Assembly: GCA_905178155.1 (NCBI GenBank)
Contig: CAJINV010000001.1
Coordinates: forward strand, 10,906,311-10,970,310
DNA from: Amoebophrya sp. A120
Taxonomy: Eukaryota > Protista > Dinoflagellata
Reading direction: 5' to 3'
DNA: 64,000 nucleotides
The first letter of the stretch is position 1; the number at the start of each line of letters is the position of its first letter. Of this stretch, positions 4,742 to 64,000 are shown piece by piece. Made by a program: the position numbers and the translations under genes. The notes beneath the pieces were generated by a model. It had not been told where the DNA came from. It saw only the letters and a list, made by a program, of their open reading frames with translations, and made no database searches.

Positions 4742-7700
4742 ATGCCGCGGTTGCTGCCGAGCAATGACGTAGTGATCGACTACCTCGCTCTGGAGTACAG
4801 TTTTGACCAGCCCAGTTTTGAGGTCGCGATGCGTGGTGGGATTGACTGCTTTCAAAAGAAGGACTACAGCAAGTGCACCGAGTATCTCGGGGTCGCCTAC
4901 GAAATCTCGCGGCGCATGTCCCAGCCCCATTTTCCGATGGTGCAGGGCGTTTTGGTACCAGGCTGCGTTTGCTTTCAGCCGCTTTCATCATGGTTCAAGT
5001 TTATTCGTCTGTGTGTTGTCCCCTTGTGGTTTTATTTCGTTGCTACTTGTCTTTGAAGAAAAGCTAAAATGTTGTAGTAGGTTACCAATATTCAAAATCG
5101 CGACATCTGCAGTTCATGCGGAGTGTCGCGAATTCACTGATGGGCAAAACGGTCGAAGCCTTGCACGACATCGAGGTTTCCCTGCAGGTACTATGTGCGA
5201 AAAGGAATTTTCTTCTTCAATGAATGTCATTGGTGGCCACTCATTGATGCCGAAATAACATATTTACTTCTTGCATCGTGAGTGTCTATAGACATAGTGT
5301 ACGCGACGTTAGTCATTCGTTTATGCCTCAAAAAATACAGGTCCTGCCGCACGCTGCCATCTCCCTCTACTGGCGTGGCTTCCTACTTCTGAAAACCGCG
5401 GAGAATTTATGATAGTAGACAATTATTCCCCCTCGCCCTCCCCCTCATTTGTGATGCAAGAGGCCAAATTCTTTCTGGGTGTCTCGGTCGTGTTCGCATG
5501 ACAAGTTAGTTTTTAAATCCCAAAGTGCACTACAATTCGCGGATGCGACATGCAAAACTGCACTTTGCAGGTTCTTTGTCTTGCTACACACGCCCTACCC
5601 CTTCAAAGGAGGGCACCGGGGGGATATTGTGCACTTTCATAGAGAATTGAAGTCGCGTATCGCGTGCTGCAGCAGCTGGTCGGGGCCAACCCGGAGTGGC
5701 GCAATTTCGTGGAACTGACCATCGCCTTCTTCCTGGGTTTTCATGGTTTCCAGGAGAAGGGGATCCTGATGTGCACGCGAGTCATGCGTCGAATGGAACA
5801 AGAGTTTGGCTCCCTGGACGAGGAATTTACGCGATTAGAGAAGCTAAACGAGGAGAAGTTCAAGGAAGGTCAAAAGTTCAAACCACAAGGGGGTGCACCC
5901 TCTGACGTACCTGGATCATCAACCAGGACGGAAAAGCACGTATCACTAGCTCGAGATGGCAACTCGAGTGTGAAGTTCCGAGGGGACGAGGGCGGTATAA
6001 TCGCAGGCTCCGAGCAAATCGGCGGGTCGCAATCGTCCTCTGCAGCGTACCGCAGCTACGCGACACCCGAACTGGAAAGGGAACGCAATAATGTCGATCT
6101 CGTCCGCGCTTTGGCGTAAAAATATTAAGTGCTTCTTAGGGTTAGGTTGTAGTTGTTTGTGACGCTAGCCTCGGATGAATATGGTTTTGCGTTTGAGGCA
6201 GCGGAGGGATCGTTACTTATTGAGAAACTAGTACTTACTGAGAAAATAGAAATCACATTCTAGTAAGCAACCCCGACGGATGGCATGATCCGCGCGAGCA
6301 CGTCATGCTTGCTCACGTACTCAATGAAGGTACTTTATTCGCGGAGAGTCGTACAAAGGGCACGCGCATGGCGCGTATTTTGCGCAGCAGGCTGCAGACG
6401 ACTTCTCCGTCGTGCTCGAGGTAGCTTCGGCTTCGCTGGGCAAGTGGCTGGGCAAAGGAATATCTCCGGACACGTTCGAGAACATCTTGCTAGACTGCAA
6501 AATCTTAGAACCGCACTTCCCCAAAGCGAATTCCCAAGACTACGCTTTCTTCAATCAGCAAATCGGGGGGAAACGGCCGTTTTCGGTACTGCTGCTGTCA
6601 TGTTATGATTCCAGGTATTTGAAGAGCAGGAAGATCTCTTTAAAGTATAGGATTGAAGATTTCGAATCCGAACTTGGGTTTCTTTTTCCGCTCACCTTGG
6701 GAAGCGCATTGCATTCCTTTTTGTTCATCACACTAGTCAAAATACAAACTCCAGTGTGTATCTGTGTGAGATCTTCATTTTCATCATCCACCTCAGATTT
6801 TCGGGCGTGTCGCGCTGATGGCCGTGAAGTTGAAGCACGCGCTATCACCGGGAAAGAAGATGATGCAGAACCAAGGCCGCGGAGGGCACGCAACAAGAAC
6901 GGTCGAAGTCACAAGTCCGGGCGGGACGAAAAGGACGAAACCGGCGCCGCCTCCGCCTCCCGGGGGTGCCGGAGCAGCAGGGAAAGCCGGTGGCGCGAAG
7001 TCGAGACTGCGACAGCAGGCCGATGAGCAGCGGGCGCTGCTCGCGCAGCGGCTCGGGCAAGTACCGGACGCCGCGAAGCCGTTTGAGATGTGGGGGCCGA
7101 TCGATGCGCGCAGCACGCACGTCACGCCCTACCGCAGGCAATGGGTGCAGCCCACGGGAGTGCGTCCGGGGATCGGTAGCAAGAGGGCCACCGCTTCGTC
7201 CGCAGATCGGGGGGATGCGACAGACGCGACAACCGCGGGTCCCGCATCAAAGGACACGGTGTATTCGAGATCGCAGTCGCCACCGCAGCTATCAAATGCA
7301 AAAATGTCTGGGTCTGGAAGAATGCAACTTGTAATGCGTATTTCAGAACACAGAAAAATCTCTCATGCATAGGTAGCAAAAGCTGCCCACTGTCTGTCAC
7401 CAAAGTGGGGGATTTGTCATGCGGATTCGGCATTCCGGAGGCTCTTCGAGACCTGTGATGCTAGAGCTTCCATGCCAGACCTTCTGTATCATGCAAAAAC
7501 AGCATGACTCTTCCAGACCCAGACATTTTTACATTTGATAGCAGCAAGGCTGGTACAAGAAAACGGACGAGGGGTTCGTGATTCCGACTCCGTACGAGCT
7601 GAAGTTTCAGAGCCGTAGTCCGTCTGTGGCCACGTCGCCGCAGAAACGCCGCGGGCGGAGCAGGTCGGCAACGAAGGGCAAGGCTGAGGAGAGCAGTCCG

Positions 7701-13728: not shown

Positions 13729-15575
13729 ATGGCGGGACGTCCGCCGCAGCTACCACGCGGGGCTACAGCACCAGTCGGCGTCAACCAATCCCGCATCAAT
13801 GATCTACGGTCCGAAGTGCAGCGAGACTCACACGTGGACCTTCAGAAGGCACGACTGAGCAACCTGTTCCATGCGGTAGACAAGAAGAGAAACGCCGTGC
13901 AACCACGGTCCGCACCCGGGGCAGCTGCATCAAGGGTATTCTGCTAGCCTCCAATTTTGTAAATAGGCATTGCACTGCCACTGCCAACCGTGTCCTTCTT
14001 GCTCGGTAATGGTTGATTGCGCTTTACATATATAACGCAACTGCTCCCATCTGAAGTACTTCTAAGACTAGCGTATCATGATCCAGCACCGTAAGTAGAT
14101 ACGTGGACACTTCGAAGCTCTGACACTTCAATTTCCATAAGTGTCTGAGTCAAAAGTTGTCCTACAATAAGCAAGCTGCTGGGTGTCACGACATTCCGTT
14201 TCGTCTCGGTGTCGTGTCAATTGAAGTGGCACACAACTCGTTGATGTAACTCTAAGTTCAGTGAAAATAGACGAAAATGATGACTCCCTTGACCATAGAA
14301 TACTTGCACTGATCTTTCAGTGACGAGACTTCTACTCATGTACCACCAGTCTGATTTGGTTTAACTTTAACGTTGCCAGAACCCAGTGCGTCCAAATGGC
14401 TACTTGAGGTGCCGTCGCGACCGCGTCATGGGGCTTTCTGACTTCCCATGATGATTTGTTTTAACCATAGAATACTTGCACTGAAGAATACATAACATTC
14501 TGGGTGACGAGAATTCTATACATGCACCACCAGTCTGATACAGGGAAGCGAAAGAGTTCTAGTTCTAAATGGTGTCCTCGAGAGCAGACTACTGCGAATG
14601 CGTTGCCTCGCACAGTTTACGTAAGATACGGATTTCCAATCTCTCGAAGGTGTCCGCGGGCTCGAAGCGATCAACGATATCGGGCGATGCGGGGAACGGT
14701 ACTCCTCGCGGCACACTGTTTCCTGGTGGATGCGGTGTCGCGGAGGCTGTAGCGCGGTCGAAGAACAATCCGCGTGATCTCGATAGCAAATATTCGCCGA
14801 CGAAACGCACGAGCACGCGAGGCGGGGGTGGACGAAGCATGTCCTGGGCGACTCTAGTGTCACCGAGACCACTGCCGAGTGCGCACTATGGAAACGACAG
14901 CAATCCGTACTTGTTCGCGCGGCGCGTCTTCGAAAAGGTTCATGGCAGCGCCGTACCCGCCGCAGCGCCGAGTGCAGCGGAAATCTACCGCAAGATCCCG
15001 GAGAAATTGGTCAAAATATCGGACGAGCCGCAGCAGCCGCAGAGTGGCGGCAACGGCGCTCGCCGGGGTAGTAGTCCACACGCGCAGGGACGAGAGGTGC
15101 CCTCCTCCAGTGCAAACAAGGATCAAAGCAGCCTGCTGAACATGAGTGGATTCATATCCTGTGTAAAAACATCCCCACACCAGAGTCAGGATGGGGATTT
15201 TGCAACACAAACCTAGGAGTTTTGTGAGTCACGCATGACAAGTTGCACTCCGCAGTGTAGTGCAGGTTAGCAAGTGCAGCCGCATCACAGATTCATCTGC
15301 TCATCCTGTTCACAGCATCACAAATTCCAAAACACGATTGGAAATGGCTCTCATGGGGATGCGCATTACGAGTCTTCCTGTCTTTGCAAATCTGCATTAC
15401 AACTTCGGCGTGGGTACGTTTTTACTCAGGATAATGCAGCATGGATGCCTCGAAAGTGTCCGCGGTACCGATGCCGCGCTGGGCCGCGTCGCCGATTCTC
15501 AACAGCAGCCCTGCGCTCGAGCTGTCCCCGCCCACGCGGCAGCAAAGCACATCGCCTGCAAAGTATAGAGCTTGA
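13729..15575 (+). CDS. Hypothetical multi-exon protein; probable snoRNA host gene
   Basis: Exon MAGRPPQLPRG... ends at a donor near 13936. The next ORF (14569) continues in frame across the 15155 element (SGFSMDASKVSAVP...KYRA*). The first acceptor is not resolved. Confidence 0.5.
14273..14358 (+). ncRNA. Box C/D snoRNA, copy 1
   Basis: C box ATGATGA 14277-14283, D' CTGA 14309-14312, C' GTGACGA 14320-14326, D CTGA 14351-14354. Guide CATGTACCACCA lies before D and GAATACTTGC before D'. Confidence 0.8.
14441..14548 (+). ncRNA. Box C/D snoRNA, copy 2 (paralog)
   Basis: C ATGATGA 14447-14453, D' CTGA 14481-14484, C' GTGACGA 14504-14510, D CTGA 14535-14538, terminal stem CTTCCC/GGGAAG. Guide CATGCACCACCA is complementary to the conserved 18S TGGTGGTGCATG. 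Confidence 0.82.
15155..15433. mobile_element. TIR introner, family E copy 1
   Basis: 24-bp TIR, 21/24 (TATCCTGWGTAAAAACRTMCCCAC), and TSD ATTCA/ATGCA. An open frame is restored on removal. Confidence 0.85.
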
Positions 15576-15929: not shown

Positions 15930-17445
15930 ATGGACGTTTCTGCGCACGTGCAGCGTGCCGGCGACGAGCGGCCAGGCAGTCCTCTCGCTGCGCGGCCGGG
16001 TCAGAGCAGCAGTAGCACCAGCGCTCCTCGACAGAAGATGACGACTACAAGCAACAACACACGTGCTGGAACTACCGTTCAGGGGGCGCGGTTTCTCACG
16101 TCCACTCGGTTTGCGCAGCTGGAGAAGAAGGAGCGCGAGGTATCCTGTGCCAAAACGTACCCTTCCCAAGATGCCCAAGATGAATATTATGATCGGCCGA
16201 CCGCTAGACAAATTTAGAAGCAGGTATGGGAGTTACGCACGAAATCGTGCAGCCTGAGTGGTTGTGATTATGTCTAGTTAGTCCAAGCGCATCACAGACC
16301 CAGTAGGGTATTCTTGGTAGAGCATAACATGTTCTTTTGTGTCTGACTTTGCTGTGCTTCTTTCATGGCCGGGACCATCCCCAGATAGAGGAAAACCCGC
16401 AAGCATGACAAATCCTACTGAAGAAATACTCGCGATGTTTTTCGCGGTTCTGACCCTAGATCTCCTGCGTCCGAAGCTGCTTGCGGCGACGGTGCAAAGG
16501 TTTTTGATGTGGTGCAGTCGGGTATGCGTGACAAATCCTACCACGGGCAGCCGAGTCGTGCGACACAATCAATGCTGGGCCGGCAGATTTGCATATAGAA
16601 GGAATATGGGAAGGGTAGTACTGCAACTTTACTCAGGATACGGGGAGCAGCTGAAGCAGGCGGCTGAGATCGCTGCGAAGGTCAGCGAGCGAGAGAGCAG
16701 ACTGGCAAACGCAGAGCAGGCGAAAAAGCGCGGCTGGTCGGCATTGTGCTACGAGGACCAGAACAAAAAGTGGGAAAAGCTGAAAAAAAAGTATCCCGAG
16801 AAGTTTCTTTCGGCGGAGGAGCAGGAGGAGCTGGAAGTGCAGAAGATCCAAGCGCAGTGGGCACAGCGACGGGCGGAGCACCGCCAGCGGAAGGAGCAGC
16901 TGGCTCGCGTGATGCAGCCCGCGTTTGCTGAGGAGTACAATTATGGAGATCATCCGGGCTCGCCCGACCAGGAGACGACACAGGAGCTGTTTTCCACGTC
17001 CGTAAACGCCCGCATAGATGTAGAGCAGCAACATGCGCGGGATCCGTTCTCGCCCACACACGAACTGCCGCGCGACAGCGATGCGCGGGGAGGTCATCTT
17101 CCCGGGGGTGGAGGTGGGGACAGCACGAGCTATCCCCTTCGGAACAACCGGTCCGCGTCCTCGAGGCTCTCCACAGCAGGGAACAACAGTTTTACTCCAA
17201 ATTTGTACGACGACGTGCCGTCGAAATTGCAGCTGCGCAACCCCGCACTGTACATGGACCAGCTGCAGATGGACCAGCGCAATCGAGAGCTGCAAAGCCT
17301 GCAGGCGGAACAGGACCGCGCGGAGAAGGAAATGGAACATTGCACGTTCGACCCCTTCGCGGCTGCTAGGGTCGGACCGGGGATGATTCACAATTCCGTC
17401 TTCAAGGGCAAGGAGCTCCCGAAATCGCGCTGTTTGCGCGGCTAG
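15930..17445 (+). CDS. Hypothetical coiled-coil protein (about 336 aa after removing the introner; 3' end may extend)
   Basis: ORFs 15810 and 16339 join in frame (LEKKEREEQLKQAAE); C-terminal EMEHCTFDP motif. Confidence 0.65.
16141..16640. mobile_element. TIR introner, family E-related, 500 bp
   Basis: Both ends read TATCCTG...TACCCTTCCCA; TSD CGAGG/CGGGG; internal GCATGACAAAT; frame restored. Confidence 0.82.
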
Positions 17446-37236: not shown

Positions 37237-37242
37237 GAAAAG

Positions 37243-37540: not shown

Positions 37541-37551
37541 TTCCCCCCCTC
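37541..37551 (-). other. Polypurine tract (PPT)
   Basis: GAGGGGGGGAA on the - strand immediately before the 3' LTR. Confidence 0.85.
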
Positions 37552-37886
37552 GGAATCTTCTGACATGCCTGCGACTCGGCACACAACTCAAACAGAGTTT
37601 TTTCTTTCAAACACGCACCAAGACCGTGGGTGCGATTGGAACCATCCGAGTAGCATCGGATTTTACAGTAACAGTAGTAGTACACATAGTAAAGCTGCTT
37701 TAGACCATATAGTTGCCCTGAACTACATGCGTCTTTTCTTCTTCTCCTCTTCTTCTTCGGTTTCGGCCAGTGCTGCGGCGAACTGGTACCCTTTCGGAAC
37801 ATGGCTACGGTGCGTCTAGCCAATATGCAGGAGAAATTACGAGAAATTTTCTTTGTAAGTAGTTTTAGTGTCAATGCCCCCTAGCA

Positions 37887-42569: not shown

Positions 42570-43047
42570 CGTGGTGCGAGCGAGATTAAGATACAGCTGA
42601 ACCTTGGCAGGACCTAAAGTCGCAAAATTGAGACAAATGTGACACAATTTCTGATACAGGTTGTAAACCACCCGGCAATTTTTGGAAGAGTAGAACTCGT
42701 CCGTTACCAGCACAGTCTTATGACTGCCCGCGCGGTACAAAAGACGCGCGCCAAGATCGTACACGACCTCAGTAAAGGACCAGCCGTCCATTAGTTTTAA
42801 GGGGTAAATTTTAGGGGTTAAACCGCTAAAAATTTTCTTTAAAATTGTAAAAACCAGCAAAAAAATTGCCACTACTACTACCGTAAATCAATCAACCTAC
42901 AAGGCGCAAACTGTGAAAACAGTAAACCTAAAAGTTGAAAACTGTAAAGTTCCAAAAACACACAACACAACCCAGCGCGATGCTGTCCAGTTGCCCCGTT
43001 GTTCAGTGTTTTTCCCTTTGAGCTTTTGGCTTAAAGGATGTCAAGAT

Positions 43048-43345
43048 TGTTAGCAGTACCGATAACAATCCACGACGAGGAACACAAATAGAGCCTAAGT
43101 ACAAGGAATCTAGATGGTATCACCACCGTGGTGGACTTTATTCAACCAGTACCAGAGGTACTTGACAGCCTGAAACAGCATGGGTAAGCATCATCATCAT
43201 TCATGTTCATTCTGTGAATGTGCACAGAACCAGGGTGGTAGTGCAGATGATCATGTCATTTGAGATCGCAGATTTACATGTCATTTCATCACGAGAGCAT
43301 TGGGAATTCGGATCGATCATCATTTACATTCTGATCTCACCTACA
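43048..43345 (-). repeat. 5' LTR
   Basis: Direct repeat of 37243-37540; AATAAA on the - strand at 43137-43142. Confidence 0.96.
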
Positions 43346-43887
43346 AAAAGCTAAAATCTGTTTGCCTTGAGCGATTTCTAAAAAGTATTCTCTTGCACTT
43401 TTCTTTGATGTTTTTGCATCACCCAACTGCATCGAAATAAAAGCACAGAATCAGAAGTGAAGAAGTCCGTGGACAAGTGAGAACGTGTTTTCTGCGTGAT
43501 CTGCGTGGTCCGCTTCCGAAACACCTGCACGTCGTGCGGATGACTGGACGCCAGCGGGCATTGATGGCTCACCGGTATAAAAAAAGATTTTTGCTTTTTG
43601 TTCTCTTTCTCAGTGGCCACAGTTGCTGCAAGAAGTTTACTTTAAGTACTATCAATCCGGTGCGGCTGGAAAGAGACAATCATTTTCGCTTCCAGGCGGT
43701 CGTAGATTTTAGCGTGACCGACTCACCGTATTCTCCGGAGCATGCCAGGATCGCGCCACCGCGAAACTCACGAAATGCTGCTTCGCCGTCGAAAATTGGC
43801 GCTACTCCCAACCACACTCAATTTGGGCGGCAACTGCAACAGAGGTAATAGCACTCGCTGTAGTTTTTTTTCGTCGACGAGTGCAGA

Positions 43888-45008: not shown

Positions 45009-45410
45009 ATGACGACTGCGTCCAACTTTTCGGAGCCAGTCTCACCGTCTCCCCAGCACGGCAGCTACAGTCCAGACCTTCGGCGGGGCTGCCATAGTCC
45101 GGGCGACCTGCGCAGCGGACTGCGACCTCCTGTGTCGTCAGTGGTGGAATATCGCAAGGAAAAAGTGTTACAGTTACACATTGTGTTGCAAGACCGGCAA
45201 CACAGACAACCTTTCTCATGCAAGAAATGCTTGGGAGCCTCGTTTCCTTCCTGTTTTCCCTTCTGGTCTTCGCATCACAAGTTTTCTCTGCCACACAGAG
45301 AAAATCTGTGATGCAGAAACTCCAACAAATGTGTGACTGTAACACTTTTTTCTCGTGATATGGAAGTGTCGCCCGCTAGTACAAAGGTACAGACTGTCCT
45401 CGTCAGCTAG
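45009..45410 (+). CDS. Short coding segment or terminal exon interrupted by the family H element
   Basis: After removal it reads ...PVSSVVEVSPASTKVQTVLVS*, identical to the peptide of the empty duplicate at 46256. Confidence 0.4.
45150..45360. mobile_element. TIR introner, family H
   Basis: 33-bp TIR TATCRCRAGRAAAAAGTGTTACAGTYACACATT; TSD TGGAA; empty site at 46305-46309. Confidence 0.93.
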
Positions 45411-45448
45411 TGTGCAAATCAATTCGACTACTAACTACTAAGTCGAAA

Positions 45449-48189: not shown

Positions 48190-51100
48190 ATGCCTGCCTC
48201 CGGTAATAGCCGGAGCGTCGGTCCAGGTTCCGACAAGGTGGGCCTGTACCGCAATAAAACGCCCGAGCGTGTGGGTGCGCGTGCCTTGACGCCTAGTCTC
48301 GCAGCGCCCGGCCTCCTGTCCTCCCGTCCACAGACCGCACCAGGCAGGAGTAAAGATAGTAAAGGGAAGAAGGCTTCGAAGTTCAGTCGGCTGCACCAGC
48401 CCGACGAGGTTGTCGAAGATGAGCATTTCAGTGTGATTACGAAGCGATTAGGCGACCGTCCGCCGGAGCTGCTCGGGGCCGCACGGGACGACGAAGACGG
48501 CCAGGTGAAGGCGCTGCCGTGGCTGCCCCACGACCCCTCGTCGAAGCTGGTCACGCAACTGGAGCCGGATTTTCTCTTTCGCGGCGAGGCGAGCACGCAC
48601 CTGATGAGCGATTTAAAGCTGTTTCTGGAGAAGGACAGCGACTGGCGGGAAAATTTGGTCAAGTTCACACACTTCTACATCACGGGCTCCTGGCACGCGA
48701 GTGCGGTCAGGCGGTACATCCAGGACGTCGAGCAGAATCGGCGCCCCTTGCCCGAAAACAAAAACCAGCTTCCAGTGCAGGTTCCCTTCGACGCGATTTC
48801 CCTAGCGAAGTTCAGCACCGCGAAGGAGAAAATCAAGGTGAAAGACAGTGACAGCACCTTGCTCAGCGGGTACTGCTGGGACCCGCAGGAGATTGTCACG
48901 CAGGACCTGGAAGAATTTGTCACGGGGCGATTTTTCACGCCACGGACCAGACAAGAATTGGAGAAAAAGCTCGGCGAGCACTACCGAGTGCCCGACGTGT
49001 TGACCGACGCTTCGGCTGTTTCTCTCCTCCAGGCGAAGAAGCCGAAAAACCTGAAAAGGGACCAAACGGTCGTGCTGGATTTACTCGCGACGCTGACCCT
49101 CGGGTGTCAAATCACGAAAGCGTTGACACTGCAAGGGTGCATGGAGATCGCGAACCCGTCGTGTCGGAGCGCAAACCTTCGCCGGTCTCTGCACGCGGCG
49201 CGGAAGAGCGTGTTCGAGCAGTTGCGAAAAATAATGGTGTTCACCTGTTCGCGCCGTGATTTCTCCGGTTTGAGCGAAGACCTGGACACACTTTTGTCCC
49301 AGCACCCGCTGCTGTGCTTCAATCCGGTGTTTACCCACCAGGGCGGGGGCTTTGTGCCGGACGGCTGTCTGGAAATGGAGATTGACAGCAGCTTGAAGCC
49401 GATGAACGTGGACGGTCTCCGCCCGGTCACCGGGCAAGCGCACGACAGTGCCGGCGTCTCGTATCAAATGTAAAAGTGTCTGGGTCTGGTTCTGGAAGAG
49501 TCATGCTGTTTCTGCATGACACAGAAGGTCTGGCATGGAAGCTCTAGCATCACAAGTTTCGAGAAGCCTCCGCAATGCCGAAAGAATCCGCATGACAAAC
49601 CCACCTTCCCTGCGTGACAGCCATCTGCGGCTGTTTGCACAGGGGGAGGCAAAGTGTGTCGCACTTCGGTTTAGCATGACAAATCCCTGCTTTTGGTAAC
49701 AGAAAGTGGGAACTTTTGCTGCCTATGCATGAGAGATTTTTCTGTGTTCTGAAATGCGCATCACAAGTTTGAAATCTTCCAGACCCAGACATTTTTACAT
49801 TTGATATCTCGGAGCTTCCGACAAATCTCACCGCAAAACAGGTGGTGCAGGAGCGGCGAGCCGGGCAGAAGCCGCCGACGTTCAGCCCGACCTCTCCGTT
49901 GAAGATGGTGAGTGCGGAACACGATGAGGTGCTGATCGGGCCGGGCGTCCAGTGGGACCACCGAGACGACGAAAAGTTTTACAACCTGACCAAACAAGCG
50001 GATACGAACCGGGAGGTCGTTTCCGCCGAGGCAGCGGCGTTGATTGCCACTGGTGGCCGGTCAACTAGTACCGAACCCGCACCAGTACCAGTAGGTGCTG
50101 CGGCTGCCGGAGCAGGCGCATCGGCCAGTGGTTCAGAGTCGGACGTCCGACTGAAAATTCCGCCAAAGCGGCCGCACGCCTACTACGACTACACTCCGGC
50201 CGAGGTACCGCTCCGGCCCGTCACATCCGCGAAAAACAAAGCTTTCATGGCAAAGACAGAATCCGGACTGGTCTCTGGTTCCGCGATGGAATTTTCCGCG
50301 ACGTCATCTGAAGACGAGAGCGCGAAGAGGATGAAAGCGAGCACCGAGAATGGCGGCCTATTTGGGTGGCTGGACCGAAAAGAAGCACCGCCCGAGTCCG
50401 AGGCTTCCGAGGAGCCGCTATCGCCCGAAGAGATTTTGCATCAATATGAAGAGCTCGCGCGGGAAACCAGGATGAAGCTGATCCGCGAAACGCTGTGCCG
50501 AACTGAGGAGCTGCTGGAAAACGGCACGTGCCCGGATTGCGGCTGTTTGATTCAAAAACCGAAGCGAAACGTCGACGAGGAGGAGTCCGACGCGGAGTCC
50601 GTGCACAACGACGCAGACGTCGCGAAAATCGCCAGTCTCGAGGAGCAGAAATTGAAGCAGAAGAACGAAATCGACAAATTGAGAGCGGACGTGCGGATCA
50701 AAAACGGGGAGCTGAAGGAGATGGAGGACCAAATTGTGCAGCAGAAAAATGAGATCGCGCGCCTGCAGAACGAGTGCGATAAGAAAGACATCCAATTGGT
50801 GGAGCTGGGGACGAGTCACTTGCAGGTGAGCGATCACCACGATTTCTTGGTGAAGTCCTTGTACAACTGCTTGGAAGTGTCGGGGAACGAAAAACACTTC
50901 AAAAAGCTGTGTGACATGGACAAGGACTTGCAGAGCGCGAAGGACCTAGACTTGATGCAACGAACGCAAGGGGAATTCCTGGTTTTCCTCGGCCTTCCGC
51001 CGGAAATCGGGGAGCGGCTCGAGGACGCGAAGGCGGCAAGCTGGGCCAACTTGGAGAAAGCGTTGCTGGAGGAGCTGGCGAATTGCTTCCCGAAAGTGCC

Positions 51101-54100
51101 GCAGGCAGGGCTGCAATTCAAAGTTGAGGTGAGAGCCGTCGACCATTTTCTACCTGCGCCGGCCAGTCGCGACGGGGTAGTGGCCAATTCCTTGGCGGAT
51201 TTCAACCGGAGGTGCGAGCGGTTCTTCAGCGTAGGAAAGGAATTTCATGCCGTGTCGATGTCTCTGAATCCGGCGGAACAATCCTCCTCCGGCGAGCAAC
51301 AGGACGAGAGTGAGGACATCAGTAACGAGAAGGGTGTTTCTCTAGGCGTGTTGTTCACACTGAAAGTGCCGGATGCGATGTCCTCGGTCCATTTGGAACC
51401 GCCGGAGCCGCCCGTGGATTTGTCCGCTCTCAACATGGAAGAAGGGGGTTCGGAAGAGGTGGCTGCGGTGCCGGCTTCGCAGCAGATTCCCGTCGGTTTG
51501 CCGGAAGGTTTTTACCCTGGGAAGGAGGTGGTCGGGAAATTGTCGTCTTCCACCTCCTTGTGGGCGCGCTTCGCTCCCGTTCTGGTGAAAAACACGAAGG
51601 ATATCCCGCTTCTTCCTTTGACGCCGGACGGCTCGCCCGACGACCAAGCGAACAACGCGCTGCTGCTGCCCGCGCACCTCGTCGACGAAGATGTCTTCGC
51701 CCAGTGTGGGCAAATGAAATTCGTGTCCGCGCAGGAAACAACATCGCGCGGAAATAGAGCAACCGCGCAAGTACAGCCGCGACTCTCCGGGCCGACGAGG
51801 TTGTTGAAAGCGTCTATGGGCGGGCGGGAAACCAACCCTTTTGCGATGCTGGACCCCTTGCTCCAGCCGGAGGCGCCGAACCGACCGACCATTCCACAGC
51901 GGGAACGCGGGATCTTGCTCGTGCCGGACGAGTTTTCCAAAGCGTTCAAAGCCTACACGACAAGCGTTGTGAACCGCGCCGGCTTCGATGAATTTCTCCG
52001 GTATCGGGTGTTGGCGAACCGCTTGACCTTTGACGCGCTGGTGCGGGAGTTTTCTGCGTTAACGCACCGGGTCCCCGAGGCCTGCGCCCTCGCGGGGAAG
52101 GAGAAGCAGATTATGGAAAGCCAGATGTACTCGCTGTTGAAAGCCTTGCGGGAACTGGAAGCAGAGCACTTGTACCTGCAGCAGCAATACGACGAGCTGG
52201 AGGTTTTCGCGGCGGGTCTCCGCGACGAGCTGGACCAGACCAAGGCGCAGCTGGCCGCGATGATGGAACAAAACGCGCAGCTGCAGGAGGAAAACGCGTC
52301 GTTGCAGGCCCAGTTGGCCAAGATCGAGGCGGAGGCGGGCGAATATGGCGTTCTCAAACGTTACATTCTCAACTGTTACATGATTTGTCATGCAAAATCA
52401 CAAGTAGAATTGATACGATCAAGCTGCTCCGCATGACAAATTCTCGAAGAGCCAAACAGGCTGAGAATCTGTGCCAAATCTGTCATGCTAGACGCGCAAC
52501 GTCACCTCTTTGACTTTTGCCATTCTTGCATCACAAATTCATGTAACAGTTGAGAATGTAACAGTTGAGAACGCCATAGCGAAGCGTTGACGCGTATCAA
52601 ACAGCTGGAGGAACTTCTGCGCGCCGCGGAGCAGGAGAAGGCGGAGCTGCTGTTGGCCATCGAGGAGCTGCGGTCCCGGATCGAGCAGCTCGAGCGCGAG
52701 GGTCCGAGTCGGGAGGTGCAGCAGGCGATGGCGCAGCACGGCTTGAGGTCGCAGGACTTGAGCCACACGCTGGGGGGCAGCAGCGACGACGATGGCAGCG
52801 GGTCCCCGAAGCGGCGGAAAAAGAAGGTGCGGGACCGGTCCGTGTTTGACCGGTTGTATCAGGACGCGCGCAACCGCCTGATTCGCCTGCAGGAGCTGCA
52901 GAGGCAGTTCAAGCTCGCGATGGAGGAGCAGCGGTTGAAAATTTTGAAGTGCGTGGAGGGGCACACCAGTCTGTTTCCCGATTTCCTCTTTATCGACGAA
53001 GACCTTTCGGACGTGGACAACCTGACTTCCTTCGTCCTCGAGCACTGCGGCGCCAGCGCCGTGCGGGACGGGCGGCAGGCGCACTGGATGGCACAGACCG
53101 GCGGACGGCCGTGGAGCAGTCCGGCGCGACAGCAAGAGGGTATGAACGCAGACCACGGCAACTACAACCGCACATCCTCCGCAGGCACGAAAAACGGTAG
53201 TGCGAAGAACCGGACGTCAATGGGCGGCTCTACGCGACCCGGTAGCGCAGCGGGTACGTGGAGCAGCCGGCCAATGTCCCGCGCCTCGTCCTCTTCCGGC
53301 GCGCCCACGAGCGCGGGAGGGCAGGCTCTATCCCGCGCGTCATCGCCCCCGAGCCGGATGGCCACCAAGAACAGGGTGTCTGGAACGTTGACGGTGAGTA
53401 ACAGGTACGAAAACGCGCGGAACAGTCGGAAGCGCTTCCTCTACGAGGATATCAGTGCAATGACGAACAGCAACAGCAAGTTACTGAAAGAGGAACTAAA
53501 GCCGTTGATTCCCGTCACCCCTCGCGCCGCAACCACGAACAACATGCAGGGAATGCTTGCTGCCGTCCCGAACGCCGAGAGGCACCAGAGTAGCAGAAAC
53601 GCATCGGCGTCCACGGCATCCGCGTTCGATCCACGGAACTCTGGTACCGTGGGGGGTGATGCGTCCTCCACATCAGAGCAGACGACGGCCACTGCTGAGG
53701 CGAAGAACCGCAGTAGGAGCACGCGGAACAGTGCGTCCGTCGCGGTGTACCAGCCACATCTTCCCGTTACTGCGGAGCAAGAAGAAATGGAGGTCGATGT
53801 TGGTCGTGAGGGTGCAGATCACACTGCTTCTTCCCCGGCTCGACCGGGTTCGGCCAATATCGCACGCTCGCCGTCGTCGGCGGCCGCGCAGCGGCTGCTG
53901 TTTTATCCCGACCGGGGGCCGGAGCTGTCGATTCATGATCTGGTGTTACATGCGCAGGGAATCCAGCCGAAATCGTTCCGGATGCAAACACAGGAGGAAA
54001 ATGAGAAAAAGCTGGACAACAGAAACGAAAAAACTAGCGATAGCCGACTGGGTCAGAACAGAAGCCCAAACAGAGTTGTGAGCAGGAGCAACGTCTCATC

Positions 54101-55963: not shown

Positions 55964-57298
55964 ATGTCGGGATTTTTCGGCGTGACTTCGTTGGGCCCTG
56001 GGCAGCCGATCGGATGCAACTTGCTGTCGACGTTGGGCGTGACGAGTTTTGCGGATGAGGATTTCAAAAAGGCCTTTGACACACTTGCGAGTGCGGACGG
56101 AAGCATACCAAGAATTGACGTGTATCTTTTTTCATCTTATCGCATATGGACGCAGACGCTTAGTCAGCATACAGTATGAACATTAGATGAAGTAGAAATG
56201 CTTTGCAATGACCCTTTTGATCGGATGGTAACCCATCTCCCAAAAAATATAAAGGTACGAATGCTTGACGCGGACGTACGGCTTCGAACCAATGCCAGAA
56301 GAAATCAACATCTTCGTTTATTACAATGAAAAATACCCCCACCCCCGAACTTGAAAGCATTTGTATTGCAAATCTTTCCAAATGAAACATTCGCCCTCTT
56401 GCGTGTATCAGCATCACAGATTTCCGATCGTGAATAGCAAAAATTTCTATTGCAAAAGATCCCAGCAAAAGCGGTGCTTGTCATGCAAGCGATGCGAAAC
56501 ACGACTAGAATCTGCATCAGAAAGATTCGTACTCCTTTCATGCATGACAAAAAGCTTTCATTTGGAAACTTCGCATCACAAATTCCTGCAATCAGGGGTG
56601 GGTGGCATTTTTCACTGTGATATCGTTTCCACCATGAAGCTGCAAGAGGAAGGCAGTCTCACCTGGAGCGAGTTCCTGGAGGGGCTCTTTGTGATTCGGG
56701 AAAAAGTGAAAAAGATCAGCAAGAAGGCGACACAGTACAATTCTTCAATCTTTCATGCTTTTGGCTGTTCTGTTCCTTTTTGAAATGTTTGTTCACATAT
56801 GATCGAGGGGGTTGAGCAAAAGTCAGTGACTTTTTTCATTGGCGGAAAAATTACAAACAGCTACGACTCGTACCAAGATTCAATGGACGACAGAAGGAAG
56901 CATGCCCGCGTCAAGTACGGCCCAATGGAAATCTACAAGCGGCCCATGACCACGGCGCAAGCCGTTGGCTGGCATGAGGAAGAGGTACCTACAGCAAATT
57001 CCACGTTGTGGTCTCATCTCGTGTTAATCTGAACCTTAACCTTCATTTTCCTGCTTATAAAGAGCGTTTGCTTTTTCATCTTGTTGGAATTCGAATTTTC
57101 AGACGAGCGGTGCACGTTACCCATTCAAGACCGATCATGCACAGAATCTCTATACCTTTATTCTTGTTTCTTGAGCTTGTCTAAAAAGGGTGTGTGAATG
57201 AAAATACGCAGGTCTTCATTGACCGCTTCCCCAAGTCGTCCTGCGCCGAAACCAAGTATGCCGATGCGGTCATCAAGGCCGGGGTGCAGTTTGCTTAG
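55964..57298 (+). CDS. EF-hand-like protein (179 aa, 5 exons) with a C-terminal PxTxxQxxGW motif resembling ciliary microtubule inner proteins
   Basis: GT-AG introns 56122-56254, 56735-56860 and 56985-57211 plus the 56319 introner leave 540 nt. FKKAFDTLASADGSI and EEGSLTWSEFLE are EF-like helices; PMTTAQAVGW...CAETKYAD. Confidence 0.75.
56319..56622. mobile_element. TIR introner, family B copy 2 (inverted relative to 36548)
   Basis: TIR TATYACARTGAAAAATRCC; TSD TCGTT; frame restored (EEINIFVSTMKLQEE). Confidence 0.92.
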
Positions 57299-58150: not shown

Positions 58151-61100
58151 ATGGGCGGAGGCGGAGAGGGGAGCAGTAACCAGAAGGCTCCGTTCTTCAA
58201 CATCACCCGTATTCGGGTACCCGGTTACATTGCGAAACAGCGCGCCCACCACGAGAGTACCAGTGGGCTCTTCTGCCTGTTGATTGAGGACAACAAGAAA
58301 GGCAAGGGGTTTTTCCGGAAGCACTTGTCGAAATGCACCCCTGCCGTAAGCGAAGGCATGCAGGCGCTCGGGCTGCGGAAGAAACGGCGGAAGCGGCGGG
58401 TGGAGGAGTATTGCAAGGAAAAATCCCCCCTCCCCATATTGAAAACATGTCCTTCCGAAAATTTGTGATGCAGATTTGTGACCACAAATCGAATCCTGTC
58501 TGTCTTGCCAGAAGACAAATCTAGAGAGTCCGCCGCGAGATGCAGGCGGTTTGTAATGCTGCAAGGCCTACATGGCAGACGTCTGCCATGCTAGGTTCCT
58601 ACACCAAAAAACACCCCCTCGCGCTTGCGATCTGCGTGCAGTGCTCTCCTGCAAGACAGGTGTGATTTGTGTACACGAATCCCGCATCACAGTTTCTGTT
58701 TTGATATGGGGAGGGGGGATTTTTCATTTTGATAAGGAGCACGCTGCCTTGGAAGCGAGCGGCGCGGTGACGATCCGCACCCGTGCGATCGAAGACACCA
58801 GCCACCCCACCTGGGAGGCGTATTCCTATCGGAACAAGGTGATCATTCCCCAGCCGCTGTTCCGCGTGAAGAACGGCATGAAGCTCCTGGTCGCGGTGTA
58901 CCGCGACCTGCGGGGGGAAGATACGCCGCTGACGGAGGCGAAGGCACGGATCACGCAGGAAGGCCGGATTCTGCTGCCCGGCTTTCCGTTTGACATCGAG
59001 GTCACGGTCACCGCGGCCTCGTTCCGGCCCTTTCGGATCGAGAACTGCAAGGACAACATCCCCTGGCGACCGAAAACGCGGGAAGAAATGGAACGGCTGT
59101 GGCAGCCGCTGGCGGAGGTGGCGCAGGTGGAGGACTACAATTTCCCCGTGGACATCACGGACATTATGGAGCGGCAGTTCGTGAACGACATCGTTTTGAT
59201 GTTCAACACCCTGTTCCCGACCAAAAAGGCCATCGCGGATCTGCTGTGGAACCAGGATCGCACCTTCTGGGAGAAGGCGCGGGTCAAGTACTCGCAGACG
59301 CTGGCCGGGAAGCTGTCCGCAAACGCAGGCGCAGCGTCCGTCCCGGTGCCGCCACCGAAGAATGCATCAATGTTGCCAGCAGCGGCCGCATTAATTGCAA
59401 ATCCAGCAACTCAACAACAGCAGGTATTGAGCAAGTCTGCGCTGCGAAACTTAAGCAGCTACACGGCAACCTCATCGATAAGTAACGCGAGTCAGATCGG
59501 GGTGGCTCTGGCTGGCTCCTCGCCCACCAGTTGTACAACCGGGAACGTGGCTGTGCAGAAGAAGGTTTCAGCTGCTGCTTCGATCGAAGGCTCGGCGAGC
59601 CGGACCCTGCTTGCCGTCGATGACGCGGAGCCAAATACTAAATCAGCGGGCATGAGTCTTTCTCCGAGCAAGAACGAAGGAACAAGATTACACGTCGAAA
59701 CCGCATCGTCGATTGTGAGCACGCCCGCGCACGGAAGTGCGCTCTCAAGTCCGACCAAGAGGGGCCACGCGTCTGACAACTTTGGTGCCTTGGCGTCGCG
59801 CAGGCGCGAAGTGGAGCAAAGCCTGGAAACGCTGCAGCTGAAGGTGATGTTCATGCGCAGACTGTTTCTGTGCATTGCAACGTGTGGCCTGTACACAACG
59901 GACGTGCCGAACTCCGCGACGAATCAACTGTGGCCTTTTCCCCTGGCAACGGTTTTTGGACACGGAAGTCGCGTCTTGTTCCAACTCGAAGGGGTGTCTC
60001 CCGTCGATTTTCTGCACTTCCTGTTCACGGGCAGCGTTCCCGAACCGGAGCAGCCGGCGTCCCCGAGCAAAAGTCCGGAGCGCCGCCGGTCCGTGCGGCT
60101 GCAGTTGGACGAGCAAGACCAGAGCAAGTTCGCGCTGCCCGACGAGAGCGTCGCTGTTCCGGCAGCGGACGAGATCCACCGCCCGGAGCCCGTTTCCGGC
60201 ATGATGAAGAGCACGTTCAGCATCGTCGCCTCCGCCAGTCCCGCCTCGATGCTGCAAAAACGCGCAGCGACCTCGTCCAAGCAATCCGCCGCGCCGGTCG
60301 ACGCCGGCGCCGACATCGGCGGGCGCTCGGTGAGTGTCCAGGCATTGAACGTGAATGCTGCGACGTCGGTGTCTACTTCCGTCTCCCCGTCCAAAACAGG
60401 AGGAGGCGCAGTAGTTGACCACACCTCGTTAACATCAAATAGTACGCATCAGCACCCGCCTTCCGCCACCGCGTCTTCTGCGATGCTGGTGTCCTCGCCC
60501 TCGCATGCGGCTCCGAACAAGGGGACAACGCCCGAGCGGCACGGACTTTTTACCGCGCATTCCCAGACGGACATCCGCGTGCTGCAAGTGCTGTCGAAGC
60601 TGCCCCTCGCAAAGCGGGCCGCGGCCACGCACAAGGTCGAACGACGCGGGGAGCACCACCTGGAAAGTGGGCTCGCCTTCACCGATGAGAATCTGCTGGC
60701 CGGGGCGCTGCTGGTCGAGCGCGTTTTGAAGCCGTGGCAGGCACTGAGCCAGGGCTACGAGATCCTCGTGGACGGCAAGCGCGGGAAGCACTGGGGCCTC
60801 GATCTTCCCGTCGGCGGCGCGGGAAACCCGAAGAAAGTGCACGACGGGAAAGCAGGTTCGTAGCTCTCCTGGTGAACAAACCTGCGTTCTTCTTTATGTA
60901 GCTCGATTCTTGTATACATGCTTTTTTTTTTGGTTTTGTCCTTTCGACAGTCCGTTGTTTTTCGATCGGAAGCAAGACGGTGGCACACAGTGATGAAATT
61001 TCACAAAAATTTCAGGTTTTGTGGGCTTCAACGGAGAGCTGTTCCAACTGCTGCCCTCCGCGACTTACGAGGGGCTGTCCATCGGGGCGCGGAGCCAAGG

Positions 61101-64000
61101 CTACCGTGGCGGCGCGGGGACGACCTTTACACTGCTGCGCGACGTGCTCGGGCGGTTGCCGCTGGTCAGCTGGGTACTCGGCAGCAGCGAGCTCGGTCCG
61201 GAGGACCCGAGCCGAAAGAAGAGCAACCACCCGGGCGCAAACAAGTACGCCACGGGAGCTGCAACGGGGGACGGGAAATCCGCGCGCCGAGACTTGACGG
61301 GCGCATCCGCAAGCGTCGTGGACGACACGGCATCGAGCACCGTGGGCTCGGCGCGCAGGCAGCTGCACCTGAGCGGTTCCGTGCGAGGGCTCATTGTCGA
61401 CGACGGGCTTGCCGGCCTGGCGAGCACGACGTCCAGTCTGCGTTCTATGCAAGATAACGGCGCTCCTGGAGGGGGTGGTCCCACGGGAGTCGAAAGCGTC
61501 GCCTCGTACGCGGCGCGCTCGACCAGCACGCAGCGCAAGCATCGCGGAGGGCCCAAGGCAAATCAGCAGCACGTGCTTCCTCGTGTCACCTTCAGCAACC
61601 GTGCCACTCTGTTCATGGAAAAGTCCAACTCGTTCGCCAACTTCAGCGGAAACATTCGGCGGCACCTTTCGGAACGAACCCGACACGGTGTCACGAAAGT
61701 CATGTCGCTGGGAGGTGGGTCTCGGAACTTGCTTCGGACAAAGGAGAAAAGCGCGGGCGGGCACCGCAGCAAGGTCGATGGTGGAACAGCGGAGAATCAT
61801 GTGTCACCAGGCAAAGGCAACACTACTGACGACCTCACCTCGGAAGCAAGCGAGTTTTCGGGCAATAGCAACGTCGACGACCAGAGCACTGTGGTACATA
61901 AACAAAGTAAATACTCCAAATCCTAGCTTTCTTAAGTGGTTTTAGACCGGTCACTGAAGTCTAAAAACTTCTTTGCTTTCTTTGAACTTCCTTATCCGTG
62001 AAAGTAGATAGGGCTAGGCAGACATCGCACTAATATTTATGTGCATGTTCTTGTTGAGGTCTCGATCTCGTCCACCTCTGCAGGAGCCCGTGCGCATGAT
62101 CCCAAAAAATTATTTGCCCTTACAACTACTACTACATCACTACCAGTTCACCTCTGCATCCGCGACCGGAGCGGACATTCACCGTTCCTCCACACCCCCG
62201 CAGAAGAAGAAATGGAAGCGATCCATTCGCGTGGTCGGAGGCGTGCAGAACGGCCACGTGTACCTTCGCGTGTATGGTGGTCTCAAACGTTGCATGGGTC
62301 GCTGACTGTGAAAAGGTGCCCTTTGTACGGAGTGCGTTCGTGTGTTCGGTCGGATTTGCGTCACGAAATCATGGCACAGCGATCAATGTAACGTTTGAGA
62401 ACCCCATAGCATGGACGAGGAGGTGGATGAGTTGCAGGTGGAACAGGAGACAGATCCGTCCGCCAGCGAGCGAAACCTTTCGACGTACGGGACGAACAAT
62501 AGGGGCAGTCTGGATGGCATTCACGCGGACCTTGCGCGCGCCGCGAACAACAGTGGGGTACTCGCGGCCCGGATTTCCGGGCTCACAGGCGACGGCGGCC
62601 GCACGCCCGGCGGGCCGTTGGAGGACGGCCGGCCGCTGCATGACTTGGTGAACCCGGCATCGCCGGGGGCGCCGGTTGCGGTACTGAACAAGAACCTACC
62701 GGGGCTCTCCGCGGTGCCCAGCTCTTCCAACTCGGGGACCAGTCTGAAGAGAAGCAGCGACCCCGCGGCGGAGCAAGCGTGGCGTGGCAAAATATACGGG
62801 ATCTGCGATCGCTTGTTGCATGAGGCGAACGGCTCCGCTGACGGAGGCTCTTCGTGCGGCGTCACCGAGAAAACGCTCGCCGCACCGCCCTCGATCGAGG
62901 TTTTGCGGCAGGTTCTTTCCAATCACTTTGGCGTCGCGCTCGAGCAGTTTGGCAAAGGGTCCGCGAAGTCACTCGAAGCTTTCTACGAGGAGCTGTGTAG
63001 CGGGGAGTCGGCGCTCGCGATTTGCATGAATTACGAACACCAGCAGAACGCCGCACGCTCGCATTCGGTGACCGACCAACTTGCTGGAACCGCGTTAACG
63101 CGCGACTCGTCGAAGGGCGCGGCGTCGTCGAAAACGAGGCTCGAGCACGACTTGAATGTCAAGTTGTCCGATGTTTTTTTGGAACAGCACGCCGACCAGC
63201 GATCCGCAGCGTCGACGCTAGAAGAGAACAAGTCCGCGCCTCTGTCACCGCGGTCCCTTGCCGACACGACAGGGGGCCGGCTGGGCGTGACTTCGAAGGA
63301 GATGGTTACCATTCGCGAGGATGCTGTCATGGCGCAGCTGCCGGAGGACGACAGTCGAATGACGAGCAAAAACGGTCCCCTGTCCTCGTCACTCCGGTCC
63401 CCGAACTACAGCAACGGTTTGGGAAGTCCGTCCAGTCCCGCGGACAGTGCGCCGTCTTCCGATCACACGAATTTGCTTGCCAGCGCCGTACTGGGGAAGC
63501 GGGCGAGGAGCAAAAACAGTGGTGAGCAGATGGACGGGTCGGTGTGCGGTATGGAACTACATCACAACGGAATGTTGAACAACTCGGCAACGCCGGCCAA
63601 TGGAACTTCTACGCAAGAAAAGCAGCAGGAAGACGATCTCCAGGAAGAAGTTTGCAGTTTGGCGAGCGAGAAGGTGGAGCCGCTGGAGTACCCGCCTATG
63701 GCCTTGGAGTGCGCGCTACAACTGGGTCGTGGCGAGGTTTCGATGTTTGCGGACGGCAATGGTAGCATGCCGGGCGCGAAGTCGCCGGTAACGCTCTCTT
63801 TGGTTCGGCGCGTGGCTCCGGTAATCGTGCTGATTCGGTCGCGGGGGAAGATTCTGGTGCGTACCTGTGAAATCAGCGAGGACGACCGGTTGGTGTCGAC
63901 CGCGCCGCTGTTACCGGGCGCGAAGCGTCGGCCCAGCGAGCCTTGGCGGGATTGCGTGTACCGGATGTTGGCGGACGATTTGCATTTGGACGCCGAGAAC
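58151..64000 (+). CDS. Large multidomain protein: C2-like, Ntox11-like and Nudix-like domains (runs off the window)
   Basis: C2-like RTRAIEDTSHPTW...LLVAVYRD; Ntox11-like GHGSRV, RAAATH, WGLDLPVGGAGN, NGHVYL; Nudix-like FGKGSAKSLEAFYEELCSGES...LPGAKRRPSEPWRDCVYRMLADDL. Introns are 60856-61015 (GT-AG), about 61894-62082, and two introners. Confidence 0.7.
58409..58734. mobile_element. TIR introner, family C copy 2 (inverted relative to 36064)
   Basis: Same TIR core GAAAAATCCCCCCTCCCCATAT; TSD AGGAG; frame restored (RRVEEHAALEAS). Confidence 0.92.
62273..62408. mobile_element. TIR introner, family D-related, 136 bp
   Basis: 32-bp imperfect TIR TATGGKGKTCTCAAACGTTRCAT; TSD GCGTG/GCATG. Frame restored (GHVYLRVDEEVDEL) into an ORF that appears open to 64000. 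Confidence 0.87.

What the first reader, a model, noticed from the sequence alone, without database searches (positions are those of the whole stretch)
5408..62408. Fifteen TAT...ATA inverted-repeat elements from about 8 families act as splice-site-independent introns inside exons
Seen: elements start at 5408, 7290, 10351, 15155, 16141, 25140, 36064, 36548, 36917, 45150, 49462, 52344, 56319, 58409 and 62273. All begin TAT and end ATA with 20-40 bp TIRs, and 14 have 5-bp TSDs of unrelated sequence. In every case deleting the element plus 5 nt joins the flanks into an open frame. No sliding position within TSDs such as CGACT, TCTCG or TCGTT gives GT-AG, although ordinary GT-AG introns occur in the same genes. 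Known: inverted/direct-repeat introner-type non-canonical introns have been described in Amoebophrya, and to my knowledge their removal machinery is unresolved. Inference: these are non-autonomous DNA transposons removed by a structure-guided RNA splicing (or DNA excision) system that reads the TIR stem rather than splice dinucleotides.
Basis: partly seen in the sequence, partly recalled or inferred. Interest (0 to 1): 0.9.

Follow-up and report, generated by a model that had tools for sequence, protein, structure and literature searches.

The report
Amoebophrya hairpin transposons spliced as introns
These are short jumping DNA elements, already described in the marine parasite Amoebophrya A120, that sit inside genes and are missing from the RNA copies; here the cuts fit a fixed spacing from the element's ends instead of the usual GT-AG signals, likely made by a modified spliceosome.

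Summary
The 15 elements are real (13 pass a strict scan, 0.3 expected by chance). The window is Amoebophrya sp. A120 (three proteins 100% identical). The elements match the published A120 introner elements (Farhat 2021: TAT, 7 nt, AAA; short direct repeats), so the class is known. Two rest on ORF continuity alone. One (36917) is not joined to its own flank: it opens a 6.6-kb composite intron holding a 16th, decayed element and a whole Copia retrotransposon. New here: all 6 junctions with mismatched repeats fit one register, 1 nt before TAT and 4 nt after ATA; only one of them fixes it exactly. The intron then starts N-T-A-T, like the local GTA donor, so it is not wholly splice-site independent. 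Keeping the left repeat copy argues against a reverse-transcriptase artefact. DNA-type contigs keep the elements. A U1-less spliceosome is the likeliest remover (inferred, untested); the transposase is unknown.

The parts
5408..5641 (.). TAT..ATA element, 234 bp; removed stretch 5407-5645; 7-bp flanking repeat; fixes the register exactly
   Evidence: X3 contig piece starts at 5646; P0003 fits only element+5 with 4 left bases kept
7290..7540 (.). TAT..ATA element, 251 bp, perfect 5-bp repeat; family with 36917 and 49462
   Evidence: contig length 1151 between pieces; P0003
10351..10503 (.). TAT..ATA element, 153 bp, perfect 5-bp repeat
15155..15433 (.). TAT..ATA element, 279 bp, repeat mismatch at position 3; left base kept
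   Evidence: X3 piece ends at 15152; 366 nt between pieces as predicted
16141..16640 (.). TAT..ATA element, 500 bp, short TIR, repeat mismatch at position 3; left base kept
   Evidence: X3 piece starts at 16644
25140..25418 (.). TAT..ATA element, 279 bp, repeat mismatch at position 4; left base kept
   Evidence: P0001 reproduced only with 4 or 5 left bases kept
36064..36386 (.). TAT..ATA element, 323 bp, repeat mismatch at position 4; left base kept; 74% like 58409 in opposite orientation
   Evidence: P0005
36548..36852 (.). TAT..ATA element, 305 bp; 90% identical to 56319 in opposite orientation
   Evidence: P0005
36917..37184 (.). TAT..ATA element, 268 bp, inserted at the 5' edge of an older element; front of the composite intron 36916-43505
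37190..43501 (.). 16th, decayed element (204 bp without the Copia; starts TAT, ends ATC); the exon resumes 4 nt after its end
   Evidence: gene model P0005; X3-X6 contig lengths fit
37243..43345 (-). Complete Copia-type LTR retrotransposon inside the decayed element; 298-bp LTRs differ at 1 site; 5-bp target duplication
   Evidence: RVT_2 3.5e-24, retroviral SH3 6.3e-10; integrase hit weak, below cut-off
45150..45360 (.). TAT..ATA element, 211 bp, perfect 5-bp repeat
   Evidence: joint 45144>45361 skips 216 in 4 of 4 runs; P0005
46256..46379 (+). 124-bp duplicate of the 45150 locus without the element: empty site with one copy of the 5-bp repeat
   Evidence: 121 of 124 identical
49462..49806 (.). 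TAT..ATA element, 345 bp; opposite orientation to 7290
   Evidence: ORF continuity only, 433 + >=500 codons; no joint listed, where cover was thin
52344..52578 (.). TAT..ATA element, 235 bp
   Evidence: joint 52338>52579 skips 240 in 2 of 4 runs
56319..56622 (.). TAT..ATA element, 304 bp, in a 179-codon gene that also has three GT-AG introns
   Evidence: joint 56313>56623 skips 309 in 4 of 4 runs
58409..58734 (.). TAT..ATA element, 326 bp
   Evidence: joint 58403>58735 skips 331 in 1 of 4 runs, depth 2.7
62273..62408 (.). TAT..ATA element, 136 bp, repeat mismatch at position 3
   Evidence: ORF continuity only, 85 + >=500 codons; no RNA cover; own protein not returned

Best explanation
These are the MITE-like introner elements of Amoebophrya A120: they sit in exons between 5-bp target repeats and are missing from RNA-type contigs as element+5 nt, with cuts that fit 1 nt before TAT and 4 nt after ATA, likely made on pre-mRNA by a modified, U1-less spliceosome. 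Shown: anatomy, organism, 5-bp duplication at an empty site, both orientations, loss of element+5, and the left repeat copy kept at positions 3 and 4. Inferred: (a) an unidentified DDE transposase inserts them, reading TAT-N7-AAA ends and perhaps the inner TGTNATGC repeats; (b) in pre-mRNA the two TIRs pair or are bound by protein, which brings the exons together; (c) the 5' cut uses N|UAU as a relaxed form of the local GUA donor; (d) the 3' cut is set by distance from the TIR, not by AG. Because 1+4 equals the 5-bp duplication and both ends carry the same signal, any insertion in either orientation and any phase restores the frame, which would explain spread through exons.
For: Organism and class; PMC7789003 section 11; AAA within positions 11-15 at 27 of 30 ends (counted by eye). 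Removal length: joints at 4 elements, contig lengths at 4, deposited proteins at 7. Register: 6 of 6 informative junctions allow 4 left bases and 5408 allows only that. Donor likeness: 18 of 19 GT-AG introns of the window start GTA; the nine commonest A120 non-canonical pairs all start N-T and the nine A25 pairs T-T (Table S4). Elements and GT-AG introns are removed in the same contigs. Nearly all spliceosomal proteins and U2, U4, U5, U6 were found in A120 but not U1, while a strain with GT-AG introns has U1. TIR-derived non-canonical introns of Fritillaria need the U2 spliceosome (passage). Predicted stems close at TAT/ATA in 15 of 15; z <= -3.5 in 13 of 15.
Against: Nothing here tests the enzyme. 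Only 5408 excludes the cut one base further right, and it is an atypical, decayed element. Eight of the nine top A120 pairs in Table S4 end A-N, which is what the mirror register (-4/+1) gives; in 7 large A120 families of PMC12130899 annotated ends are GT or AT in 45% and AG or AC in 47% of 1994 introns, which a single register with random targets does not predict; the cause may be annotation sliding or mixed registers. Farhat's Fig. 3 legend calls the sites variable. No G-U bias in the stems (10 v 10), and the decayed element has a poor stem, so a role for RNA structure is unproven. A stable stem would hide +2 onward from U6. All informative genes are on one strand. The RNA status of X3-X6 is the tool's guess (spliced joints and poly-A ends support it), they are one sample, and the deposited proteins are gene models that may not be independent of such data.
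Confidence: 0.55

Rival explanations
1. Same elements and same cuts, but removed by a dedicated non-spliceosomal machine (endonuclease plus ligase) that measures from the TIR ends, as suspected for euglenid nonconventional introns.
For: The last two intron bases are free in this register (AG in 3 of 15); +1 takes all four bases; stems are predicted in most; both orientations work. Euglenid TIR introns are released as circles by an unknown route (review section).
Against: +2/+3 match the spliceosomal donor in both strains; loss of detectable U1 tracks the presence of these introns; no such enzyme is known here; the shared T-A could also be plain transposon end sequence, so this point is not decisive.
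Confidence: 0.25
2. Spliceosomal or other RNA removal with a loose register that slides inside the direct repeat, as the 2021 paper's figure legend implies; the fixed register seen here is a small-sample effect.
For: Fig. 3 legend; N-T starts and A-N ends both common genome-wide; n is 6.
Against: 6 of 6 exclude keeping 0-2 left bases and 4 of 6 exclude 3; rough chance of one shared position under uniform cuts is about 0.01; at 5408 the junction ignores a 7-bp repeat.
Confidence: 0.12
3. The joins are reverse-transcriptase slips across a hairpin flanked by direct repeats, and the real mRNAs keep the elements.
For: Hairpin plus short direct repeats is the known substrate of such artefacts (PMC8240250 passages); all RNA evidence here is presumably cDNA-based.
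Against: The enzyme copies the right repeat first and should keep it, yet the left base is kept in 6 of 6 (inference). At 5408 the 7-bp repeat is not used and would give a stop. 10 of 15 elements would shift the frame if kept. An orthologue is colinear across 5408 and 7290. The same joints occur in up to 4 of 4 runs as the main contig.
Confidence: 0.04
4. The elements are cut from DNA in some stage or nucleus, like ciliate internal eliminated sequences.
For: TA-rich ends and inverted repeats recall such sequences (recalled, no call); one empty site exists in the window.
Against: X1 contigs run unbroken from unique flank into the TIR at 5 of 5 elements and through 5408; the register is asymmetric with respect to transcription; the empty site lies in a duplicate inside an intron. 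Limits: one genome-type run, contigs drop rare variants, and 202 joints were not shown.
Confidence: 0.04

Closest known systems
Amoebophrya A120 introner elements (Farhat et al. 2021, PMC7789003)
   Same: Same organism; IR begins TAT, seven variable bases, then As; 3-5 nt direct repeats at the borders; non-canonical ends; no transposase inside; 1954 families and 29,850 members reported.
   Different: The text, legends and tables read give no fixed cut register; they call the sites variable, though one sentence on four repeat bases upstream of the 5' end may describe the same thing. Not found in what was read: the inner TGTNATGC repeat, the nested composite intron, the left-copy argument. Figures 3, S19-S25 could not be seen.
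A120 introner families in Gozashti et al. 2025 (PMC12130899)
   Same: Most of the 22 of 58 A120 rows read are classed TIR DNA, superfamily unknown, about 150-350 bp, about half non-canonical ends; family 38 has TIRs and Copia/Gypsy-like ORFs.
   Different: Target duplication called 2-5 bp or not called; window elements were not matched to numbered families; no transposase tied to TAT ends.
Fritillaria borealis non-canonical introns
   Same: MITE-derived, TIR and target duplication, non-GT-AG ends, U2 spliceosome needed.
   Different: Mostly AG-AC or AG-AT ends; here +1 and both last bases vary.
Euglenid nonconventional introns
   Same: TIR stem joins the ends, target-like repeats at the borders, coexist with GT-AG introns.
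   Different: Pairing at +4..6 with -8..-6 there, from +2 with -5 here; circles shown there, untested here.
Micromonas and Aureococcus introners
   Same: Short non-autonomous TIR transposons that become introns.
   Different: They bring one canonical site and take the other from the duplication; here no slide gives GT-AG.

Membership tests
Amoebophrya A120 introner elements | Host is strain A120 | tested here: met
   P0001, P0003, P0005 100% identical, labelled A120 by the source
Amoebophrya A120 introner elements | IR starts TAT, seven variable bases, at least three As | tested here: met
   TAT at 30 of 30 ends (also the selection rule); AAA in positions 11-15 at 27 of 30
Amoebophrya A120 introner elements | 3-5 nt direct repeat over the exon-intron border | tested here: met
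   9 perfect, 5 with one mismatch, 1 atypical
Amoebophrya A120 introner elements | Removed from transcripts at non-canonical sites | tested here: met
   12 of 15 supported, 1 composite, 2 unchecked
Amoebophrya A120 introner elements | Repeated in families across the genome | tested here: met
   related copies in the window; many other copies laid on the elements in X1 (not a copy number)
MITE / non-autonomous TIR DNA transposon | TIRs, short, no coding capacity | tested here: met
   136-500 bp, stops in most frames
MITE / non-autonomous TIR DNA transposon | Target duplication proven by an empty site | tested here: met
   one case, 46256-46379
MITE / non-autonomous TIR DNA transposon | Insertion in both orientations | tested here: met
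   36548/56319, 7290/49462, 36064/58409
MITE / non-autonomous TIR DNA transposon | Cognate autonomous element or transposase (superfamily) | not testable with these tools
   no genome held; no transposase family among 17 window ORFs and proteins scanned
Canonical U2 (GT-AG) or U12 (AT-AC) intron | GT-AG, GC-AG or AT-AC ends | tested here: not met
   GT-AG 0 of 15 over all slides; in the -1/+4 register GT starts 6 of 15 and AG ends 3 of 15, never together
Spliceosomal substrate (works like) | Lariat, branch point, snRNP dependence | not testable with these tools
   contigs cannot show lariats
Euglenid nonconventional intron | CAG/CTG pairing at +4..6 and -8..-6 | tested here: not met
   stem starts at +2 and -5 with TAT/ATA
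Euglenid nonconventional intron | Released as full-length circles | not testable with these tools
   no suitable reads
Programmed DNA elimination | Empty allele common in DNA | tested here: inconclusive
   no break at 5 of 5 borders in one genome-type run; rare or stage-specific alleles not visible

The most novel reading that the evidence does not exclude
A120 has a ruler-type RNA excision system, separate from the ordinary spliceosome, that reads the TAT-N7-AAA motif at both transposon ends and cuts 1 nt before and 4 nt after them whatever the flanking bases, length (136 bp to 6.6 kb) or cargo; it would make any insertion of this transposon group silent, clear nested elements in two steps, and give retrotransposons a safe harbour inside exons.
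Probability: 0.22. Interest if true: 0.85.

Novelty: already known. Interest (0 to 1): 0.42.

Why it matters
How more than 60% of A120 introns are removed without GT-AG is still open in the papers read (2021 paper, 2024 reviews). The class is not new, but a fixed -1/+4 register turns the question into sharp tests: it names the base at which a lariat or circle must begin, predicts the base kept at every mismatched repeat in the genome, and shows the intron keeps the U-A of the normal donor. It also answers the obvious reverse-transcriptase objection and would correct thousands of annotated borders. A signal that removes itself exactly, in either orientation and any phase, would also be a useful scarless cassette if the machine were found.

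Tried and rejected
No whole genome is held, so no genome-wide register count or transposase search. Raw-read runs X10 and X11 did not cover the locus: 13 and 108 reads, nearly all running on unlike, so another strain or repeat hits; no use for retention or strand. Laying the genome-type run X1 swamped the joint table with other element copies (202 joints not shown), so the first five elements rest on piece borders and record lengths. No joint was listed for 49462, and 62273 had no cover; neither is evidence against. The representative search with the 58740-60854 exon returned 84 distant proteins, not the window's own, so 62273 stayed unchecked. My first exon choice for 6116-6796 (6359-6614) fitted the length but broke the frame; P0003 shows 6330-6585, of the same length. 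A full rebuild of P0003 failed at its first two exons; only junction peptides were matched. Two joints inside elements (45180>45307, 52398>52513) were read as other family copies and set aside. G-U bias test negative. TGTNATGC as a fixed branch site: rejected as a strict rule, since 6 of 15 3' ends have no match with at most one mismatch 30-58 nt from the end. Table S4 and the 2025 dataset were considered as genome-wide proof of the register and rejected as ambiguous. Earlier-findings look-ups gave nothing. One paper search gave no hits.
Full report
1. Observation. All 15 starts begin TAT and pair with an ATA end 136-500 bp away. A scan for TAT..ATA with at least 13/20 inverted match and at least 4/5 flanking repeat finds 13 sites, all among the 15, against a mean of 0.3 in 20 shuffles. 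The 5-bp repeat is perfect in 9, has one mismatch in 5, and 5408 has a 7-bp repeat. No slide in the repeat gives GT-AG (0 of 15). The elements fall into about 8 groups, and three related pairs lie in opposite orientations: 36548/56319 at 90%, 7290/49462 at 86-89% over two stretches, 36064/58409 at 74%.

2. Organism and class. Three exon searches each returned a protein 100% identical to the window and labelled Amoebophrya sp. A120. Farhat et al. 2021 (PMC7789003; sections 10, 11 and 16 read whole, other passages, supplement legends and Tables S4, S5, S7 as text; figures not seen) describe A120 introner elements with IRs that start TAT, seven variable bases and at least three As, 3-5 nt direct repeats, 1954 families and 29,850 members. 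AAA lies in positions 11-15 at 27 of 30 ends here (by eye). The class is therefore known.

3. They are DNA insertions. The locus of 45150 is duplicated at 46256-46379 (121 of 124 bases identical) without the element and with one copy of the repeat: a 5-bp target duplication. Both orientations occur, as expected for a TIR DNA transposon. The motif TGTNATGC occurs 42 times in 4149 element bases and 5 times in the other 59,851, often 41-45 nt from an end and across unrelated families; a transposase-binding repeat is my guess. No transposase family was found in 17 window ORFs and proteins. The 22 of 58 A120 rows read in the supplement of PMC12130899 class most families as TIR DNA of unknown superfamily.

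4. They are lost from RNA as element+5. In contigs of runs X3-X6 (RNA by the tool's guess; spliced GT-AG joints and poly-A loose ends agree; one sample) joints skip 216 at 45150 (4 of 4 runs), 240 at 52344 (2 of 4), 309 at 56319 (4 of 4) and 331 at 58409 (1 of 4, depth 2.7), each element+5. In X3, record lengths between pieces equal the prediction for 15155 plus 16141 (366) and 7290 plus 10351 (1151; one acceptor was chosen to fit and then confirmed by P0003). Deposited proteins fit element+5 at 25140 (whole protein reproduced), at 5408, 7290 and 10351 (junction peptides), and at 36064, 36548 and 45150 (whole protein reproduced). An orthologue is colinear across 5408 and 7290. So 12 of 15 are supported; 49462 and 62273 rest on ORF continuity; 36917 is special. 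In the genome-type run X1, contigs pass from unique flank into the TIR without a break at 5 of 5 elements, so no common empty allele shows in that run.

5. The register. A mismatched repeat shows which copy survives. The left base is kept at position 3 in 15155 and 16141 (contig piece borders 15152 and 16644) and at position 4 in 25140 and 36064. At 5408 the contig piece starts at 5646 and P0003 fits only four left bases plus the fifth right base; using its 7-bp repeat would give a stop. All fit one cut: 1 nt before TAT and 4 nt after ATA. The intron then starts N-T-A-T, while 18 of 19 GT-AG introns of the window start GTA; its last two bases are free. A reverse transcriptase slipping at a hairpin (PMC8240250 passages) copies the right repeat first and should keep it, the opposite of what is seen (inference). 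Against: only 5408 bounds the cut on the right. Table S4's nine top A120 pairs all start N-T but eight end A-N, the mark of the mirror register. Annotated ends in 7 large families (1994 introns) are GT/AT in 45% and AG/AC in 47%. Annotation sliding could explain this, and so could mixed registers.

6. A composite intron. P0005 does not join 36917 to its own flank; its exon resumes at 43506. After 36917 and its repeat a second TAT begins a decayed 204-bp element that ends ATC at 43501 and is split by a complete Copia (37243-43345; LTRs differ at 1 of 298). The junction is again 1 nt before TAT and 4 nt after the far end, with the left base kept at position 4. The X3-X6 contigs have 1353-1361 nt upstream of 46491, which fits this model with an 83-91 nt leader; starting at 43506 would account for only 919. 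This is indirect; the joint itself was outside the stretches laid. Removing 36917 in the same register would rebuild the older element's 5' end, so two-step removal is possible.

7. Mechanism. Shown: insertion anatomy, removal length, left-copy retention. Inferred: a modified spliceosome. The 2021 paper found nearly all spliceosomal proteins and U2, U4, U5, U6 but no U1 in A120; a strain with GT-AG introns has U1 (10.1101/2024.09.05.611473 passages); Fritillaria's TIR-derived introns need the U2 spliceosome (10.1101/2025.08.15.670264, one passage; its supplements are closed). Predicted stems close at TAT/ATA in all 15 (z <= -3.5 in 13, 15 shuffles each), but G-U and A-C mismatches are equal (10 v 10) and mismatches cluster in positions 4-10, so the signal may be the TAT-N7-AAA sequence more than the stem. 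The main rival is a separate endonuclease-ligase as suspected in euglenids (PMC11282704 section 6 read whole).

8. Novelty. Five paper searches found no study that resolves the removal machinery or states a fixed register; PMC11453091 passages repeat the 2021 account. The library lacks most subscription papers (Roy 2023 and Henriet 2019 were seen only as cited), and unseen figures of the 2021 paper may show the register. Verdict: known class, confirmed at this locus, with a testable refinement. Interest 0.42.

Noticed in passing
window 45451-46257: About 800-bp element inside a GT-AG intron, with CTGCAGC-A-run inverted ends and the same inner motif as the TAT elements; its right end abuts the 124-bp duplicate and lacks the last three TIR bases, suggesting an aberrant transposition that copied host DNA. 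Its 185-codon ORF has no Pfam match.
   Followed up: partly
window 37243-43345: Intact, young Copia-type retrotransposon (1560-codon ORF, LTRs 297/298 identical) lodged inside a decayed introner; it also makes a 5-bp target duplication, like the introners.
   Followed up: partly
window 5403-5407 and 5642-5648: The orthologue has R where A120 has N at this junction; the right repeat copy still encodes R. A 7-bp duplication with a compensating 2-bp loss on the left would explain it, if removal always takes element+5.
   Followed up: partly
all 15 repeats: Mismatches by repeat position are 0, 0, 4, 3, 1: positions 1-2 never differ. Unexplained; small numbers.
   Followed up: no
window 8900-9600: A repeat with about ten times single-copy depth and many variants inside the 1109-nt GT-AG intron 8714-9822; two ORFs there have no Pfam match.
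   Followed up: partly
window 14280-14520: Two near-identical tandem segments inside the intron 13936-14649 (seen).
   Followed up: no
window 24150-27862: Protein P0001 carries a TET-associated glycosyltransferase domain (PF20691, 1.2e-10), a family linked to base J-like DNA modification (recalled).
   Followed up: no
window 7509-7540: Run X10, which otherwise does not match the window, has 6 reads with this TIR end in other flanks: the same end family is present in that material.
   Followed up: no
whole window: Every host gene modelled lies on the + strand; several long genes (20374-23664, 28334-30292, 31258-34938 with a DnaJ domain) have long exons with no element.
   Followed up: no
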